A stretch of 64,000 nucleotides of DNA, taken from NCBI GenBank assembly GCA_041649575.1, contig JBAZMW010000002.1, positions 148,487 to 212,486 on the forward strand, written 5' to 3'. Source of the stretch: Patescibacteria group bacterium. GTDB lineage: Bacteria; Patescibacteriota; Patescibacteriia; 2-01-FULL-39-33. Made by a program: the position numbers and the translations under genes. Below the pieces are notes generated by a model, which did no database searches, had not been told where the DNA came from, and saw only the letters and a program-made list of their open reading frames with translations. Shown here piece after piece: positions 8,183 through 41,781 of this stretch (positions within the stretch are counted from its first letter, which is position 1; every line of letters starts with the position of its first letter).

Positions 8183-8284
8183 AATATATCTTTCTCCAGA
8201 GAGAATGATTCATAGTCCACTTGTGGTGGAAGATGATTGCACAAAAGACAAGGGAACAGGAACCCAAGAAGGAGGCTGTACGTC

Positions 8285-9106
8285 ATGATTAAAAGAACCG
8301 TCGTGGGGCGACTTTTCCGTGATTCTGGCGCATTCGGCCAGTTGACGCCGCCGCCCGGTCTGGAGGGAACCATTGGTGATCCCGATTGGGATTTCTTCTC
8401 GAAGCTGCCGCCGCGTTTTGATTTTCTGGAACTCTGCGATCGGGTCGGCCACGCTTTTGAGATGTCCGAGTCACCCATCTCGCCCTCCGACTGGGAGGAC
8501 CAGTTCGAAAGTCAGAAGGAGCGGCTGCTCGCTCTGTCCGGCTGCTCTGATGGCCATGGCATCGTGCTTTTGCCCGGCCTATTGCCAGTGGCTCCCGGTG
8601 ATTGTATCAGGAAGAGCCTTTTCAATGTCTACATCCCGGCGGTAGAACGCGGCTACGGGGCGATCTATCCCAAGAGGGCTTTTGAGGATTGGTGTGATGG
8701 TCGGGCGGACAGTGTCGCGGCTTTTCCCGGAGTGGGCCACGAGCATCTAATCCACCTCGCCAGTAAAGGCTTGGTCGCCGTCTTCGTCTACATCGCCCAT
8801 TGTATGCGGGCGTGGCCCGTCTCGACCCAGCGCCGACTGCCACGGAAGTTGTTCAAATCGAATTTCTCCTTGGCCGGCGGCTGTGACACGCTTTCCGTCC
8901 TGTCTCTGCACCCTGATATTCTCGCCGCTGGTTTCTGTAGCCCGACGATCGAGCTCAGTGCCTTGCAGACAGATTCGCCGCGCCTCTCGATCTGCGTGGT
9001 GCCAGAAGACAAACGCCTCAGACTCGACATCTGGGGTAATCCCGACGATTTCGCGCCTGAAGCTTCAGGAGGGCTTTCGTTCTGGAAGGAGCAACCTGTC
9101 TTCTAG
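8285..9106 (+). CDS. GC-rich orphan protein, 273 aa, no recognised domain
   Basis: ATG at 8285 has AAGGAGG 9 nt upstream. The long open frame is in GC-rich DNA where other frames are also open, so the frame choice rests on the SD and on length. Confidence 0.6.
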   Translation: MIKRTVVGRLFRDSGAFGQLTPPPGLEGTIGDPDWDFFSKLPPRFDFLELCDRVGHAFEMSESPISPSDWEDQFESQKERLLALSGCSDGHGIVLLPGLLPVAPGDCIRKSLFNVYIPAVERGYGAIYPKRAFEDWCDGRADSVAAFPGVGHEHLIHLASKGLVAVFVYIAHCMRAWPVSTQRRLPRKLFKSNFSLAGGCDTLSVLSLHPDILAAGFCSPTIELSALQTDSPRLSICVVPEDKRLRLDIWGNPDDFAPEASGGLSFWKEQPVF

Positions 9107-9224: not shown

Positions 9225-9277
9225 AATCTTTCGATCTTTCAAGTTAAACTAGTAAGGCAACCATGGAGGGAGCTGCC

Positions 9278-10015
9278 ATGTTTCTGGTATTATTTTCCAT
9301 TCTGGTCTACCCAGTGGCCTTTGTCACCTTCGTCGTTTGCGCCTCAATCTACCTGGCGTTTGTCTTTGTCTTCAAGTCGCTGGGCTGGGAGCTGCAGTAC
9401 CTGGGGCCGTTGGTTCGGTTTCTGGCTCGCGTGATTCTCTTGAGTTGTGGCCAATGGCTCAAGGTTGGGGGCAACTGGCCCTCTCCGACTATCGGGCCTT
9501 GCATCTTTCTCTTCAACCACAGCTCTATCCTGGATGCTCTGGTGGCTGGCGCGGTGCTAAAAGGACGGTTCACTGGCGTGGCTGCCCAGGAGTATTTCTT
9601 TTGGCCGCTGTGGGGAACCATTATGCGCTGGCACAATATCATTCCCATCAAGCGCAAGTGCCACGACGAGGCCATAGAGAGCATGCGGCGGGCGGAAGAG
9701 GCGATAAAAAACGGCTGGTCAATAGGCGGCTTTCCCGAGGGCACCAGAAGCAAGACAGGAGAGTTGCAGCCGTTCAAAAAGGGCCTTTTCTATGTGGCCA
9801 AGGCCACGGGCGCGCCGATCGTGGTGATAGCCATCAAGGGGGCGTACCGTGCCAAGAGTCGCGTCGGTTGGTGTGTTCGGCCGGGAGTGATAACGGCCAC
9901 TATCGGCAAACCCTGGACCCTGTGGTCTAACGGAAAGCAACGGTATGCGGCCTTGTCGGTGGAAGAGTTAAGGCAACTGGCCGAAGGGCTCATGGCAACC
10001 ATGCTCGAAAGTTGA
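9278..10015 (+). CDS. plsC: 1-acyl-sn-glycerol-3-phosphate acyltransferase-like (PlsC/LPLAT family), GC-rich
   Basis: NHSSILD (H-x4-D) and FPEGTRS motifs. ATG at 9278 is preceded by GGAGGGAG; an alternative in-frame ATG is at 9263. Confidence 0.8.
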   Translation: MFLVLFSILVYPVAFVTFVVCASIYLAFVFVFKSLGWELQYLGPLVRFLARVILLSCGQWLKVGGNWPSPTIGPCIFLFNHSSILDALVAGAVLKGRFTGVAAQEYFFWPLWGTIMRWHNIIPIKRKCHDEAIESMRRAEEAIKNGWSIGGFPEGTRSKTGELQPFKKGLFYVAKATGAPIVVIAIKGAYRAKSRVGWCVRPGVITATIGKPWTLWSNGKQRYAALSVEELRQLAEGLMATMLES

Positions 10016-12357: not shown

Positions 12358-12714
12358 ATGAGTCAAAAGACTGGCATACTATTGCTGCTGTTGCGGCCGA
12401 AAGACGGAGCGGCCGTCTTCTTGGACTGGACCCAGAACGCCCTCTTCATGCTGGAGAGCGCGAGTGCCACAGGCGTTTCGCCGTTGGCCGAGAGGGAAGA
12501 TCTGGCCAAGTGTATGAAGGGTTACGAGCTGTGTCCCGCGCTTGGCTACGGCCTATGCGCCAGGTGCCCTATGTCAGTCACCGGCGGTGCTCTCTGTAAT
12601 TTCTGGGCTTCCCAGGGATTCGCCCGCGTGCTCGACGCGCGCACAGAAGAGGAGGCGACCTTTGCCGATCTCGATGCCATGCGCGCCGCGCTCACCGCTT
12701 CCATTACCGGCTGA
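12358..12714 (+). CDS. GC-rich orphan protein, 118 aa
   Basis: AAGGAG SD 9 nt upstream of the ATG. Contains CARCP and other Cys residues. No recognised domain. Confidence 0.55.
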   Translation: MSQKTGILLLLLRPKDGAAVFLDWTQNALFMLESASATGVSPLAEREDLAKCMKGYELCPALGYGLCARCPMSVTGGALCNFWASQGFARVLDARTEEEATFADLDAMRAALTASITG

Positions 12715-12729
12715 AAGGAGAACACGGAC

Positions 12730-13107
12730 ATGCCAACGGTACAAGTGGCCGCGATAAATCTGCCGGCTGGCGCCTTCCTTTTCTTCTATCCGGAACACGC
12801 CACCCCCCAGTACCTTCTGTACAAGAATATCTGGCTGGGACAGACGATGTTCAGGCAGAAGCTAAACGAAGACGAACTTCAGGCTCTCCTCGCCGCCGGT
12901 CGAAATGGGTGGGAGGAAGTGGGCGAGGTGACTCGACGAGAGTTGCAGGCCGCGGATCTCTCTGGACTGGTTCGCAATCTCAAGACCAGGTGCGTCTGGC
13001 CCGAGAATGCGACCGCGTCAATCGCTGTCAGTCCTGACTGCAGCGGACGATGCTCGGAGTGTCGCGGGTGCTATAGCGACATGGAGCCAGTCACAGTAGA
13101 GCGATAG
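12730..13107 (+). CDS. GC-rich orphan protein, 125 aa, with a C-terminal Cys cluster
   Basis: AAGGAG SD 9 nt upstream. C-terminal CSGRCSECRGC (C-x3-C-x2-C-x2-C). Confidence 0.55.
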   Translation: MPTVQVAAINLPAGAFLFFYPEHATPQYLLYKNIWLGQTMFRQKLNEDELQALLAAGRNGWEEVGEVTRRELQAADLSGLVRNLKTRCVWPENATASIAVSPDCSGRCSECRGCYSDMEPVTVER

Positions 13108-36584: not shown

Positions 36585-36848
36585 ATGGGACTCGTCGCTC
36601 CTGACACTCGCGGCAACGCGTGCTGGCTGATTAAATGCAACAACTGCGGCCATCAGGCGGCTTGGGATGGCTCCAATGCCGAGCAAACCCTTAGCCTGGC
36701 CGAGAATGATGGTTGGACGGTAACTCGAGGCAAGGGCCCAGGTGAGGTGGTCGCTCTGTGCCCCGAATGCAGGAAGAAACAACAGAAAGTCACTCCAGCC
36801 GCCATTGTCAGCCTGATGGATTTCCGCCAAGCATTGCCCAGGCGGTGA
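36585..36848 (+). CDS. GC-rich small zinc-ribbon protein, 87 aa
   Basis: GGAGGGAGAAAC directly precedes the ATG. CNNC ... CPEC pair. Confidence 0.55.
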   Translation: MGLVAPDTRGNACWLIKCNNCGHQAAWDGSNAEQTLSLAENDGWTVTRGKGPGEVVALCPECRKKQQKVTPAAIVSLMDFRQALPRR

Positions 36849-39294: not shown

Positions 39295-39984
39295 CTACTT
39301 TTTTAGATAATTCACGATGATTTTGGCCTGGCTCTGGTTTTCTTTGTCGTCCTTAAAAGACATCAGGCCAAAAATGTCGCCTTTCCAAAAGCCCAAATTA
39401 ATTTCATAATCTGCCAGATTTTCCTTAAACTCAAAGCCGCTTTCCTTCAGCTTGTTTTTGTAGTAGCCGGCCACCTCTTCTTTCGGCTGGCTTATCTGTT
39501 TCCAGGACAAAGAGGTTGTTTCCATTTTTTTCAGTTCCGGCGAGCTTAGGGCTTTTTTTAATTCCTCCGGCGTAAAACCGCGCGACAAGTCTATTTTATC
39601 GGCAAAACTTTGGCTTAATTTAGCTTTCAAATCATTGGATAAATAAGCCAAAGTCGGCTTAAGCAGCCAGTTTGGTAAAAGGCCCATGATTTTCAAAAGT
39701 TTTTCCTTGCCTTCTGGCGTCTGCAGTTCAATCTCGGCTTTTTCCGGCAGATAAATGGCCAGTTCTTCCGGGAAATCACCCGGCAACTGGTTGACTTTTT
39801 CCACCACCGGAGAGACCGCCAATCTGACAGCGGCAAAAAGAGTAATGAAGATAATTACCAACGCCAAAATTAAACAACCGAAAAATTTGATAAATTCTCG
39901 GCTTCTATTTTTTTCCGGATTGTTCAGGTTGAGTTCCTGCCAATTTTTCATTATTTCCTGGCTAATTTTATTATATTCTAGCAA
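39295..39984 (-). CDS. Membrane-anchored hypothetical protein
   Basis: One TM helix (FGCLILALVIIFITLFAAV). No recognised domain. Confidence 0.65.
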   Translation of the reverse strand: MLEYNKISQEIMKNWQELNLNNPEKNRSREFIKFFGCLILALVIIFITLFAAVRLAVSPVVEKVNQLPGDFPEELAIYLPEKAEIELQTPEGKEKLLKIMGLLPNWLLKPTLAYLSNDLKAKLSQSFADKIDLSRGFTPEELKKALSSPELKKMETTSLSWKQISQPKEEVAGYYKNKLKESGFEFKENLADYEINLGFWKGDIFGLMSFKDDKENQSQAKIIVNYLKK

Positions 39985-40026
39985 ATACCAGCCTTTTTTG
40001 CAAAAGTAAATCAGTCTTGTTATAAT
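39975..40026. promoter_or_regulatory. Divergent promoter pair sharing one palindromic -35 hexamer TTGCAA
   Basis: TTGCAA at 39998-40003. Plus strand: 17 nt to TATAAT (40021-40026). Minus strand: 17 nt to TAGAAT (reverse complement of 39975-39980). Confidence 0.5.
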
Positions 40027-40030
40027 AAAA

Positions 40031-40240
40031 GTGGTTCATTTCCTCGAGACCCGAACTGGTCATTTGGGTCTCACCGCTCCGGTGGGGAAGCGAAACCAGC
40101 GCCTTCGCTTCCCCTCTGGCTTAACCAAAGCACCTTGGTAGCACTTCCCGGGTCTACTGAAAGCCGCATCCAGGCAAGCATTAGACCCGTTCCCGCTGTG
40201 GCGGCCGATGGCATCAGTCATCAGCCGTCCTTTTTGTTTA
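40031..40240 (+). ncRNA. Candidate GC-rich structured RNA R1 (~210 nt, class unknown)
   Basis: Has its own promoter and terminator (40200-40240). Perfect stems at 40046-52/40066-72, 40084-94/40104-14 and 40150-56/40182-88. I found no SD-preceded ORF. Confidence 0.45.
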
Positions 40241-40289
40241 TCCACAGTTAAATATTTATAACCAAAGAAATCTTTGCTATAATAAAATC

Positions 40290-40622
40290 ACATTGGACAT
40301 GGGGCTTGTCAAATGGCCCTGCAACCAGTCCGAACGGAGAACGAGCCATGAGAACAAAGACAACGAAGCGAGCAGCAGTGGGCGTGATGGTCGATGGCAC
40401 CGGCGGAACAGCGTACTTGGCGACGTCCTGACCTAACGAGAACGGTCGGACTGGGCGTCAAAGAAGTTCTCCGAGACGCTTGACTCAACCCAAGCGTCTC
40501 GCCGCACCTTAACTCTCCTCGGAGAGTTGTGACTATAGGTTTTCACGCTTTGACAAAGCGTGGACATCCCCCTAAGGTGAGCAGTCGGTTGCTGACAGGT
40601 AGCCGACTCTCTTTTTGTTTTT
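40290..40622 (+). ncRNA. Candidate GC-rich structured RNA R2 (~330 nt, class unknown)
   Basis: Promoter TTTATA, 17-nt spacer, TATAAT (40255-40283). 9-bp long-range helix 40325-33/40446-54. Hairpins at 40473-40500, 40511-28 and 40544-62. Terminator at 40583-40622. Confidence 0.45.
40348..40431 (+). CDS. Possible 27-aa mini-ORF inside R2
   Basis: MRTKTTKRAAVGVMVDGTGGTAYLATS with GGAG 8 nt upstream. It is enclosed by the long-range helix. Coding status is uncertain. Confidence 0.2.
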   Translation: MRTKTTKRAAVGVMVDGTGGTAYLATS

Positions 40623-40767
40623 AAAAAATTTAGTTATCCACAGGTACTATTTATTTCTTTAAAAAATAGTTATATAATGAAAGTGCGGAAGGTATTTACG
40701 ATAGCGTACAACCGAAGCAGGCCATCGGCCAAACGATCGGCCAAACGAAAGAAAGGTGGGACGGAAG

Positions 40768-41259
40768 ATGAGAAAGTTCGTGTTTTGTACGGTAGTACTG
40801 GCGTTCGCGTTTGTGATGATTCCGGCGACGAATACTCCGGCATACGCGACGCAACTCGATCAAGGCAAGGCAGTGGCGACGGCTCCGACGACGATGGGGA
40901 CGACGCAGCAGGACGTGCAGACGGCGATGAAGAGCAACCTGGTCCTCGACGGCACCGGGCAGAAAGTCGCTGAAGTGATGAAGGCGCCGACTCTTGACTC
41001 CGGACGAGTGATTGCGCAGACGGCGACGACGAAGACGGCACGCGAAGAGCAGACGAAGATCACGGCGAAGAGTGACACGGTTGTAACGGCGAAGATCGAA
41101 GCGCAAGGCATGGGCGAGCAGATGGCAGCGGCTGGCGAAGATGACGCTGGCACGATCATCGTGGCGACGAAGAGTGACACCTATGCGACGAGAATCGAGG
41201 GCCGTATCGCTCACGACGCGGACGCGACCTTCAATGCGAACGTTCTGATCATCGGCTAA
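40768..41259 (+). CDS. GC-rich secreted Thr/Ala-rich protein, 163 aa
   Basis: AAGGTGGG SD. Signal peptide MRKFVFCTVVLAFAFVMIPATNTPAYA. Internal repeat CGAAGAGTGACAC at about 41069 and 41168. Confidence 0.6.
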   Translation: MRKFVFCTVVLAFAFVMIPATNTPAYATQLDQGKAVATAPTTMGTTQQDVQTAMKSNLVLDGTGQKVAEVMKAPTLDSGRVIAQTATTKTAREEQTKITAKSDTVVTAKIEAQGMGEQMAAAGEDDAGTIIVATKSDTYATRIEGRIAHDADATFNANVLIIG

Positions 41260-41349
41260 CCACGCGGGCAGCGCCGAAAGTCAGAACGAGTAGTACCTTG
41301 GATACACAACCGATACCGGCCAACAGTCGGATCGGCCACCTCCAGAGTT

Positions 41350-41388
41350 GGGTCAGCTGGCAACGGCGACCCTCTCTTTTTTTGTTTT
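41350..41388 (+). terminator. Intrinsic terminator
   Basis: GGGTC.GC / GC.GACCC stem followed by TCTCTTTTTTTGTTTT. Confidence 0.65.
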
Positions 41389-41396
41389 GAAAAAAT

Positions 41397-41425
41397 TTGC
41401 CAAAATTTTATAAATTTTTTATACT
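41397..41425 (+). promoter_or_regulatory. Promoter: TTGCCA, 17-nt spacer, TATACT
   Basis: TTGCCA at 41397-41402 and TATACT at 41420-41425. Confidence 0.5.
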
Positions 41426-41431
41426 ATAAGC

Positions 41432-41756
41432 AAGCGGTTCCTGCTGTGGGAACCGTGCACATTGGGTCAACGGGTCAACCGGAGGGTACAAGCAATATGA
41501 AAAAGGAAATGAGAGCGCAGGGTTTGGTCGTGGCGAAATGGAAGTAGGCTAGACCGTAGCAAGGCAACTTAGCGTTGTTGGGCGGAGGCCCCAACTAACA
41601 GTGGGCCTCCGCTGAATCTTTCCCTCGCTTGAGCGGGGTGCTGGTATATCCTTCTCTGAAGGGGTTCCCCCGTTGGGAAGTGTTGCCCATTCAACGCCTC
41701 CTGACCGCACAGGCTGCAATTTGTCGCAAGACGAAGGGCAGCCTGAATTATTTTTT
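41432..41756 (+). ncRNA. Candidate GC-rich structured RNA R3 (~320 nt) with a possible 16-aa mini-ORF at 41497-41547
   Basis: Hairpins at 41435-55 and 41582-41612 (10 bp). Terminator CAGGCTGC / GCAGCCTG followed by T6. Mini-ORF MKKEMRAQGLVVAKWK has GGAGGG 10 nt upstream. Confidence 0.4.
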
Positions 41757-41781
41757 GCTATACTTAATTTATACTGAATTT

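What the first reader, a model, noticed from the sequence alone, without database searches (positions are those of the whole stretch)
40290..40622. R2: structured RNA whose possible 27-aa mini-ORF is enclosed by a long-range helix
CCAGTCCGA (40325-33) is perfectly complementary to TCGGACTGG (40446-54). This helix encloses GGAG, 8 nt of spacer, and the ORF MRTKTTKRAAVGVMVDGTGGTAYLATS (40348-40431). Downstream are a 10-bp hairpin (40473-40500), two more hairpins and a terminator. This could be a dual-function RNA, a translationally gated mini-ORF, or a purely non-coding RNA.
Basis: seen in the sequence. Interest (0 to 1): 0.5.

Follow-up and report, generated by a model that had tools for sequence, protein, structure and literature searches.

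The report
Orphan small RNA with possible mini-ORF
A roughly 330-base gene with its own promoter and terminator, in an uncultured Patescibacteria genome, makes a hairpin-rich RNA that may also encode a 27-residue peptide; nothing like it exists in public data, so RNA versus peptide function cannot yet be decided.

Summary
CCAGTCCGA/TCGGACTGG has an ensemble probability of 0.001, forcing it costs 5.9 kcal/mol, and a 9-bp complement appears in 17% of shuffles.

The model instead pairs the Shine-Dalgarno GGAGAAC (40336-42) with GUUCUCC (40466-72), P 0.72. A real neighbouring mRNA is masked just as strongly, so this is weak evidence.

R2 as a whole is real:
- It has an extended -10 promoter and an 11-bp intrinsic terminator.
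- It is strand-specifically stable (z -2.6 versus -0.7).
- It has ten perfect 8-mer inverted repeats against 1.1 expected.

The mini-ORF is ambiguous:
- SD+ATG+27 codons arises in 6% of shuffles.
- Codon periodicity gives p 0.006, and the codon score is intermediate.
- Its start region matches the genome's high-GC, SD-led gene class.

R2 is an orphan. The closest genomes share at most 69% GluRS identity. It lies in a variable hotspot that is only 110-360 bp in most relatives. No DNA or peptide homologue was found anywhere.

Best reading (0.4): a stand-alone small-ORF or dual-function transcript. Rivals: a pure sRNA (0.3) or a gene remnant (0.15). Interest is modest.

The parts
40238..40247 (+). 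TTATCCACAG, an exact DnaA-box consensus, 31 nt upstream of the -10 hexamer of R2
   Evidence: Only 3 exact TTATCCACA sites occur in 64 kb. Two of them flank R2, at 40238 and 40634. The same box-N30-TATAAT module is present at the syntenic spot in L083 and L084.
40255..40283 (+). Sigma-70-type promoter: -35-like TTTATA 40255-60 and extended -10 TGcTATAAT 40275-83. The start of transcription is inferred near 40290.
   Evidence: Consensus scan, 10 of 12 matches with TG before the -10; sequence read. The start site is inferred, not measured.
40292..40329 (+). 5' stem-loop: hairpin 40300-06/40315-21 (mean P 0.72) closed by AUUGG/CCAGU 40292-96/40325-29 (mean P 0.35).
40325..40333 (+).
   Evidence: A perfect 9-nt complement of 40446-54, but pair probability is 0.001
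40336..40342 (+). Shine-Dalgarno GGAG within GGAGAAC, 8 nt before the ATG
   Evidence: The form cGGAGAACgagccATG resembles the start regions of the high-GC genes at 12730 (aGGAGAACacggacATG) and 12358.
40348..40431 (+). Mini-ORF of 27 codons plus TGA: MRTKTTKRAAVGVMVDGTGGTAYLATS
   Evidence: Purine at codon position 1 in 23 of 27 codons, p 0.006. Codon log-likelihood +2.5, between coding (6.5 +/- 2.9) and off-frame (-7.0 +/- 3.8). SD+ATG+27 codons arises in 6% of shuffles.
40422..40459 (+). Hairpin over the stop codon (40422-28/40453-59 and 40429-33/40444-48).
   Evidence: Mean pair probability 0.70 and 0.78
40466..40472 (+). Anti-SD GUUCUCC, predicted to pair with the SD 40336-42
   Evidence: Mean pair probability 0.72. 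SD unpaired probability falls from 0.55-0.70 to at most 0.02 once 40475 has been transcribed. This exact 7-mer occurs in 2% of shuffles; any 7-mer that covers GGAG occurs in 5.6%.
40473..40500 (+). Hairpin H1, 10 perfect pairs with an 8-nt loop
   Evidence: Mean P 0.995
40511..40528 (+). Hairpin H2, AACUCUC-CUCG-GAGAGUU. It carries a second CUCC/GGAG pair, and CTCGGAGA 40518-25 is also complementary to TCTCCGAG 40468-75.
   Evidence: Mean P 0.96; 8-mer complement list
40542..40564 (+). Hairpin H3, 10 pairs with loop GAC
   Evidence: Mean P 0.94
40583..40620 (+). Intrinsic terminator: 11-bp stem 40583-93/40598-608 followed by CTCTTTTTGTTTTT
   Evidence: mean P 0.99. The 25-nt tail is 92% identical to the tail of the next unit's terminator at 41374-98.

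Best explanation
R2 is a stand-alone transcription unit of about 330 nt in a Patescibacteria genome. It is transcribed from an extended -10 promoter with a DnaA-box-like site just upstream of the -35 position, and it ends at a strong intrinsic terminator.

The RNA has three parts:
- a 5' stem-loop;
- a comparatively open middle section that carries a canonical start region (GGAG, 8 nt, AUG) and a 27-codon ORF;
- a 150-nt 3' domain of three very stable hairpins plus the terminator.

I think it is most likely a small-ORF or dual-function transcript of the genome's high-GC, SD-led gene class. Under this reading the peptide can be made from the nascent RNA. Once position 40466-72 (GUUCUCC) is transcribed, it pairs with the SD and shuts off initiation, and the hairpin-rich 3' domain stabilises the RNA or acts on its own.

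Shown: the sequence elements, the predicted structure and its statistics, the single-copy orphan status, and the location in a variable hotspot.

Inferred: transcription, translation, SD masking in vivo, and any function.
For: - Promoter and terminator.
- Strand-specific stability and an excess of inverted repeats, p about 0.001.
- H1, H2, H3 and the terminator have P 0.94-0.99, whereas the ORF segment is weakly paired.
- SD with ideal spacing, in the same form as the start regions of the high-GC genes at 12358 and 12730. Most low-GC genes in this genome have no SD at all.
- Codon-position composition of the mini-ORF (purine fractions 0.85/0.37/0.70) resembles that of the neighbouring secreted-protein gene (0.79/0.40/0.61).
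- Position-1 purine periodicity p 0.006, confined to this one frame.
- SD:anti-SD pairing P 0.72; the SD is open in short nascent transcripts and closed after 40475.
- The next unit (40634-41398) has the same box-promoter module and a 92% identical terminator tail around a real-looking gene, so R2 has the layout of a gene cassette.
Against: - SD+ATG+27 codons arises in 6% of shuffles of this purine-rich sequence.
- The codon score is only intermediate, and an antisense frame scores higher.
- The peptide has no recognisable feature and no relative: peptide-pattern scans of viral and metagenome contigs were negative, and phmmer against 1.84 billion representatives gave only a low-complexity repeat protein.
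- SD masking is not discriminating. The full-length mRNA of the neighbouring 163-aa gene is predicted to have its SD even more paired (unpaired 0.02).
- An anti-SD 7-mer occurs in 2-6% of shuffles.
- There is no conservation and no expression data of any kind.
Confidence: 0.4

Rival explanations
1. R2 is a purely non-coding small RNA, acting in trans or binding a protein. On this view the SD-like GGAG and the 27-codon frame are chance features of a purine-rich, GC-rich sequence.
For: - The hairpin-rich architecture, promoter and terminator are typical of bacterial sRNAs.
- The mini-ORF is within chance, at 6%, and its codon score is below that of real genes.
- Neighbour R1 (40030-40245) is a strongly structured unit (z -5.6) with no SD-led ORF.
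- At the same hotspot and under the same promoter module, L083 and L084 carry a 540-nt uncalled RNA.
- R2 has CU-rich motifs (GUUCUCC, CUCUCCUC) that could bind SD sequences.
Against: - No complementarity of 12 nt or more to anything else in the 64-kb window.
- No Rfam family, even at E up to 10.
- The periodicity (p 0.006) and the class-typical start region are left unexplained.
Confidence: 0.3
2. R2 is the decaying remnant of a high-GC accessory gene cassette. It keeps the promoter, the start region, the first codons, a 3' UTR and the terminator, but has lost most of its coding sequence and no longer has a function.
For: - It has the same promoter module and terminator tail as the adjacent intact cassette.
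- It sits in a hotspot that differs in content between relatives.
- The coding-like periodicity extends upstream of the ATG, to 40312.
- The sequence is an orphan.
Against: - The interiors of R2 and the adjacent cassette are not similar (local score 21 versus 19.9 +/- 2.2 in shuffles).
- No frame continues as a decayed ORF.
- The promoter (perfect TATAAT with TG), the 11-bp terminator and three perfect hairpins show no decay.
- There is no longer homologue of the 41-aa frame among 1.84 billion proteins.
Confidence: 0.15
3. R2 is a cis-acting leader of the downstream 163-aa secreted-protein gene. Regulated read-through of its terminator, as in a riboswitch or leader-peptide attenuator, would control that gene.
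For: - A short ORF, hairpins and a terminator lie upstream of a gene on the same strand.
- A unit of similar layout (41428-41765) ends in a terminator directly in front of the radical SAM gene with no promoter in between, so leaders of this kind do seem to occur here.
Against: - A complete box-promoter module (40634-40678) lies between R2's terminator and the gene, which starts 150 nt after the terminator.
- No riboswitch or leader family matched.
- No convincing antiterminator alternative was seen by inspection.
Confidence: 0.08
4. R2 is a type I toxin mRNA of the hok type, kept silent by long-range masking of its SD.
For: A small ORF in a compact structured mRNA, with the SD predicted to pair with a distant downstream element.
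Against: - The peptide is not a membrane helix. It contains D, several G and T, and its mean Kyte-Doolittle hydropathy over residues 9-27 is about 0.85 (my own calculation from the sequence).
- No promoter-like site lies on the minus strand within R2 for an antisense RNA.
- No Rfam toxin or antitoxin family matched R2.
Confidence: 0.03

Closest known systems
Dual-function small RNAs (S. aureus RNAIII with delta-haemolysin, SgrS/SgrT, SR1/SR1P, AzuCR/AzuC). From my own knowledge, not tested as homology.
   Same: A stand-alone transcript of a few hundred nt, with a 15-45-codon SD-led ORF in one part, a hairpin-rich remainder and an intrinsic terminator. RNAIII is about 514 nt with a 26-codon ORF and C-rich loops that bind SD sequences. 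R2 is about 330 nt with a 27-codon ORF and CU-rich motifs.
   Different: No sequence or structure match to any Rfam family. There is no evidence of translation, no identified target and no conservation. The resemblance is architectural only.
hok/sok-type type I toxin mRNAs
   Same: A small ORF whose SD is predicted to be sequestered by pairing with a distant downstream segment of the same RNA.
   Different: The peptide is not hydrophobic, there is no antisense promoter, and there is no family match.
Leader-peptide attenuators and riboswitch leaders
   Same: A short ORF plus hairpins plus a terminator upstream of a gene on the same strand.
   Different: A separate promoter lies between R2 and the gene. 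The neighbouring unit 41428-41765 fits this kind better than R2 does.
The uncalled RNA of about 540 nt at the same hotspot in relatives L083 (8440 to 7900, minus strand) and L084 (8232 to 7730, minus strand)
   Same: The same genomic position (divergent from the 218-233-aa/WecG/GluRS operon), the same TTATCCACA-N30-TATAAT promoter module, GC-rich in an AT-rich genome, an intrinsic terminator, and no called gene.
   Different: No detectable sequence similarity to R2 or R1. It is longer, and it carries a conserved CCCUCCUUUCC motif that R2 lacks.

Membership tests
Any Rfam 15 family | Covariance-model score at or above the family's gathering threshold | tested here: not met
   The only hit in the window at gathering threshold is a tRNA at 62620-62690. 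At E up to 10 on 39900-41700, nothing overlaps R2.
Independent bacterial small-RNA gene | Its own promoter and intrinsic terminator, outside protein-coding genes | tested here: met
   Promoter 40255-83 with TG-extended TATAAT; terminator 40583-40608 plus T-run. No gene was called here on the identical contig L001.
Independent bacterial small-RNA gene | Structure more stable than expected, on the transcribed strand | tested here: met
   z -2.63 on the + strand versus -0.68 on the - strand; 8-mer inverted repeats 10 versus 1.07 expected.
Independent bacterial small-RNA gene | Conservation or covariation in related genomes | tested here: not met
   No homologue in 80 GTDB loci, 7 syntenic relatives, 120 metagenome loci, 20 kb more of the same contig, phages or plasmids. 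The nearest genomes share at most 69% GluRS identity, so absence is partly a sampling limit.
Independent bacterial small-RNA gene | A detected transcript | not testable with these tools
   No expression data were available.
Dual-function sRNA / small-protein mRNA | A translated short ORF with a functional start region | tested here: inconclusive
   GGAG-N8-ATG of the class-typical form; periodicity p 0.006, but a 6% chance of the ORF arising and an intermediate codon score.
Dual-function sRNA / small-protein mRNA | A base-pairing region with identifiable mRNA targets | tested here: inconclusive
   No complement of 12 nt or more within the 64-kb window. The rest of the genome was not searched.
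Type I toxin-antitoxin (hok/sok-like) | A hydrophobic membrane-helix peptide | tested here: not met
   The peptide MRTKTTKRAAVGVMVDGTGGTAYLATS has no 18-20-residue hydrophobic stretch (sequence; hydropathy by my own calculation).
Type I toxin-antitoxin (hok/sok-like) | An antisense RNA gene overlapping the toxin mRNA | tested here: not met
   No minus-strand promoter-like site within 40290-40622.
Transcription attenuator / riboswitch leader | The terminator lies directly upstream of the regulated ORF, with no promoter in between | tested here: not met
   The box-promoter module 40634-40678 lies between the terminator and the ATG at 40768.
Truncated paralogue of the adjacent 163-aa gene cassette | Detectable similarity of the interiors | tested here: not met
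   Only the 25-nt terminator tail and the 10-nt box are shared. The interior local alignment is at shuffle level.

The most novel reading that the evidence does not exclude
R2, together with the conserved 540-nt RNA of L083/L084 that carries a 16S-3'-end-like CCCUCCUUUCC, may belong to an unrecognised set of lineage-specific GC-rich RNAs in Patescibacteria, driven by DnaA-box promoters. Their CU-rich anti-SD motifs would act on Shine-Dalgarno-led mRNAs.

In this genome most native low-GC genes have no SD, and the strong SDs sit on high-GC accessory genes. Such RNAs would therefore selectively control that accessory class at the level of translation. R2 would do this while also encoding a peptide, in the manner of RNAIII.
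Probability: 0.05. Interest if true: 0.8.

Novelty: new member of a known kind. Interest (0 to 1): 0.3.

Why it matters
Almost nothing is known about small RNAs or small proteins in Patescibacteria, which have tiny genomes and depend on hosts. If R2 is expressed, it would be an example of a lineage-specific regulatory RNA or micro-protein gene in such a genome, sitting in a hotspot where relatives carry other cargo: an Ig-domain protein, an IS110 element and a 540-nt RNA.

The wider context may matter more than R2 itself:
- The genome has two gene classes: low-GC genes without SD, and high-GC genes with a strong SD, their own promoter and their own terminator.
- A DnaA-box-like site sits at a fixed distance from the -10 hexamer of several of these units.

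As it stands R2 is a single-genome orphan, and no functional claim can be tested with public sequence data.

Tried and rejected
- **Rfam.** Searched at gathering threshold and at E up to 10: nothing for R2, R1 or the L083 RNA.
- **Paralogy with the neighbouring gene cassette or anything else in the window.** Only a 25-nt terminator tail is shared.
- **Identical contigs.** L001 and L002 are 100% identical to the window, so there is no strain variation to use.
- **Relatives via the 218-aa neighbour in GTDB genomes.** None found.
- **Relatives via GluRS.**
  - The best GTDB hit has 65% identity, and the best among 5.8 billion proteins has 69%.
  - Seven syntenic loci were fetched (L003, L083-L089). 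The hotspot there is 110-362 bp, or holds other cargo, and nhmmer and blastn found no R2, R1 or ORFan.
- **ORFan homologues.** Only the protein itself was found.
- **Phage and plasmid BLAST in distant mode.** No match.
- **Peptide-pattern scans.** Run through a two-row alignment, the scans found no relative in viral or metagenome contigs.
- **phmmer of the 41-aa frame.** One compositional hit to a repeat protein, rejected as homology.
- **Metagenome scan for the box-promoter module.**
  - More than 120 sites, none followed by anything like R2.
  - The genes downstream are diverse, including type IV pilin-like genes and one DnaA-like N-terminus.
- **A further 20 kb of the same contig.** No paralogue and no further DnaA box.
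- **Trans targets in the window.** Only chance-level 11-mers.
- **Minus-strand ORFs in R2.** No plausible gene.
- **Literature search for Patescibacteria structured RNAs.** Nothing relevant.

Full report
**What is in the sequence.**
These are the 9-nt complement CCAGTCCGA 40325-33 / TCGGACTGG 40446-54; GGAG 40336-39; an 8-nt spacer; ATG 40348; a 27-codon frame ending at TGA 40429-31; a 10-bp hairpin 40473-82/40491-500; two more hairpins (40511-28 and 40542-64); and a terminator (40583-40608 plus a T-run).
- The consensus scan adds a promoter at 40255-83, with a TG-extended perfect TATAAT. R2 is therefore a self-contained unit of about 330 nt.
- It lies between two similar units. R1 (40030-40245) has its own promoter and terminator and folds with z -5.6. 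The other is a 163-aa gene (40768-41259).

**Is it more than chance?**
- As a whole, yes.
  - The + strand folds 2.6 sd better than dinucleotide shuffles, and the - strand does not.
  - Perfect 8-mer inverted repeats number 10 against 1.07 expected, and 9-mers 4 against 0.27.
  - H1, H2, H3 and the terminator have mean pair probabilities of 0.94-0.99.
- The headline helix, no.
  - At least one 9-bp complement occurs in 17% of shuffles.
  - In the ensemble the helix has probability 0.001, and forcing it costs 5.9 kcal/mol.
  - Its 5' arm is used to close the 5' hairpin. Its 3' arm lies in a hairpin over the stop codon.
- The model favours a different long-range pairing.
  - GGAGAAC 40336-42, which is the SD itself, pairs with GUUCUCC 40466-72 (P 0.72).
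  - Folding transcripts of increasing length, the SD is largely open (0.27-0.70 unpaired) until 40475 is made, and then closed (at most 0.02-0.06).
- I treat the SD pairing as weak evidence. Such an anti-SD 7-mer occurs in 2-6% of shuffles. As a control, the full-length mRNA of the neighbouring 163-aa gene is predicted to have its SD even more buried.

**Coding or not?**
- An SD+ATG ORF of at least 27 codons arises in 6% of shuffles of this purine-rich sequence.
- A codon model trained on the window's high-GC genes gives +2.5. That lies between real in-frame windows (6.5 +/- 2.9) and off-frame windows (-7.0 +/- 3.8), and one antisense frame scores higher.
- Purine at codon position 1 is 23 of 27 (p 0.006). 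Every comparably periodic window in R1, R2 and R3 lies in this one frame, from 40312 to 40348.
- The most useful context came from the start regions of all genes in the window.
  - Most low-GC genes have no SD at all.
  - Several of the 55-65% GC genes (12358, 12730, 32453-, 36585) have strong ones of the form GGAGAA(A)C...ATG.
  - R2's cGGAGAACgagccATG is of exactly this form.
- So the start region is class-typical, but the ORF cannot be called real. The peptide has no membrane helix, no signal peptide and no relative.

**Where it comes from, and relatives.**
- The window is from a Patescibacteria MAG. Two other public contigs are 100% identical to it.
- The neighbouring 163-aa protein matches only itself among 5.8 billion proteins.
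- The best GluRS relatives share 65% identity in GTDB representatives and 69% among all public proteins. Those carrying a source name are labelled Buchananbacteria, Falkowbacteria or simply Patescibacteria.
- Gene order is conserved in L003 and L083-L089: formyltransferase, deformylase, a Memo-like gene, a 450-aa gene, then the hotspot, then a 218-248-aa gene, WecG, GluRS and an M23 peptidase. L086 lacks the 218-248-aa gene.
- The hotspot differs between genomes.

| Locus | Hotspot content |
|---|---|
| L085-L088 | 109-125 bp |
| L089 | 284 bp, beside the same radical SAM gene |
| L003 | 362 bp |
| L083 | A 60% GC Ig-domain gene plus about 1.2 kb with no called gene |
| L084 | An IS110 transposase plus about 1 kb with no called gene |

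- R1, R2 and the 163-aa gene are therefore lineage-specific cargo.
- No search found an R2 homologue.
  - nhmmer and blastn against all fetched loci were negative.
  - Phage and plasmid BLAST were negative.
  - Peptide-pattern scans of viral and metagenome contigs were negative.
  - phmmer of the 41-aa frame against 1.84 billion representatives gave only a compositional hit to a repeat protein.

**Shared promoter module.**
- Exact TTATCCACAG, the DnaA-box consensus, occurs at 40238 and 40634. These sites are 31 and 30 nt upstream of the TATAAT of R2 and of the 163-aa gene. Only three exact TTATCCACA sites exist in 64 kb.
- L083 and L084 have the same module (box, 30 nt, TATAAT) at the same genomic spot. 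There it drives a mutually homologous RNA of about 540 nt (60% identity), GC-rich, with no called gene and with a terminator.
- That RNA shows no similarity to R1 or R2.
- R2 and the 163-aa unit also share a 92% identical 25-nt terminator tail, but their interiors are unrelated.
These lie in front of varied genes, among them six type IV pilin-like genes and one DnaA-like gene, and none is followed by anything like R2.

**Mechanism, with probabilities.**
- I put 0.4 on R2 being a small-ORF or dual-function transcript of the SD-led high-GC class. Translation would be possible on the nascent RNA and be shut off by the downstream anti-SD, with a hairpin-rich 3' domain that stabilises the RNA or acts separately.
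- I put 0.3 on a purely non-coding sRNA.
- I put 0.15 on a remnant of a gene cassette. The intact promoter, terminator and perfect hairpins argue against decay.
- I put 0.08 on a read-through leader for the 163-aa gene. An intervening promoter argues against it.
- I put 0.03 on a type I toxin. The peptide is not hydrophobic and there is no antisense promoter.
- Transcription, translation and masking in vivo are all inferred, not shown.

**Comparison with known systems.**
- R2's layout resembles dual-function sRNAs such as RNAIII. Like hok-type mRNAs, it has a predicted long-range SD mask.
- It meets none of the tested membership criteria for any named family: Rfam was negative, the peptide is not a toxin type, and it is not arranged as an attenuator.
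- It is best filed as a new, orphan member of the general kind "stand-alone bacterial small RNA or small-ORF gene".

**Verdict.** R2 is a real feature and probably a real gene, but the helix that motivated the finding is not its organising element. Its function cannot be resolved. Interest is modest (0.3).

Noticed in passing
window 39997-40245 (+): R1: its own TG-extended promoter (39997-40026), five clean hairpins, a terminator and no SD-led ORF. It folds with z -5.6, more convincingly structured than R2. No Rfam match and no homologue in any fetched locus.
   Followed up: partly
window 41397-41781 (+): A third structured unit (call it R3): promoter 41397-41425, a 5' hairpin, GGAGGG-N11-ATG with a 16-codon ORF (MKKEMRAQGLVVAKWK), several hairpins (z -3.9) and a terminator-like hairpin 41713-41765. 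The hairpin lies directly before the ATG (41782) of the AmmeMemoRadiSam radical SAM gene with no promoter in between, which looks like a cis-regulatory leader. The relative L089 has the same gene with only a 284-bp spacer.
   Followed up: partly
window 40238-40247 and 40634-40643; L083 8477-8485 (-); L084 8271-8279 (-): An exact DnaA-box consensus TTATCCACA(G/A) at a fixed 30-31 nt from TATAAT, just upstream of a weak -35, in four promoters at the same hotspot in three genomes. In metagenome contigs the same module precedes six type IV pilin-like genes and one DnaA-like gene, among others. It may be a DnaA-dependent or other regulated promoter type in Patescibacteria.
   Followed up: partly
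window, whole (for example 8237-9106, 9263-10015, 12358-13107, 32453-32950, 36585-36848, 40768-41259): There are two gene classes. Most genes are low-GC with AT-rich upstream regions and no Shine-Dalgarno. A scattered set of 55-65% GC genes, mostly without Pfam or PHROG matches, have their own promoter, often a strong GGAG SD, and a terminator.
   Followed up: partly
window 40768-41259 (+): A 163-aa protein with a clear signal peptide (MRKFVFCTVVLAFAFVMIPATNTPAYA) and a T/A/K-rich body, at 60% GC. It matches only itself among 5.8 billion proteins.
   Followed up: partly
L083 7900-8440 (-) and L084 7730-8232 (-): A homologous RNA of about 540 nt with no called gene (60% identity, with conserved blocks). 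It includes CCCUCCUUUCC, which resembles the 3' end of 16S rRNA (an anti-SD mimic). No Rfam match. An identical copy of the L083 RNA is in L199.
   Followed up: partly
L084 5790-7285 (+) and L083 7455-7560 (+): L084 has an IS110-family transposase in the hotspot, preceded by a promoter and a long 5' hairpin. L083 has a homologous promoter and hairpin but no transposase; a 20-aa SD-led mini-ORF and a bidirectional terminator follow it. This may be an IS110 non-coding end or bridge-RNA-type region, or a remnant of one.
   Followed up: no
window 36585-36848 (+): An 87-aa protein with two CxxC pairs (zinc-ribbon-like), at 58% GC with a strong SD GGAGGGAG, wedged between the M23 peptidase and GluRS genes. 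No family match. Relatives have other small ORFs at this position.
   Followed up: no
L003 (CAYIBK010000010.1): The record is titled 'uncultured Gammaproteobacteria bacterium', but its gene order and GluRS (65% identity) match this Patescibacteria lineage. The label is probably wrong.
   Followed up: no
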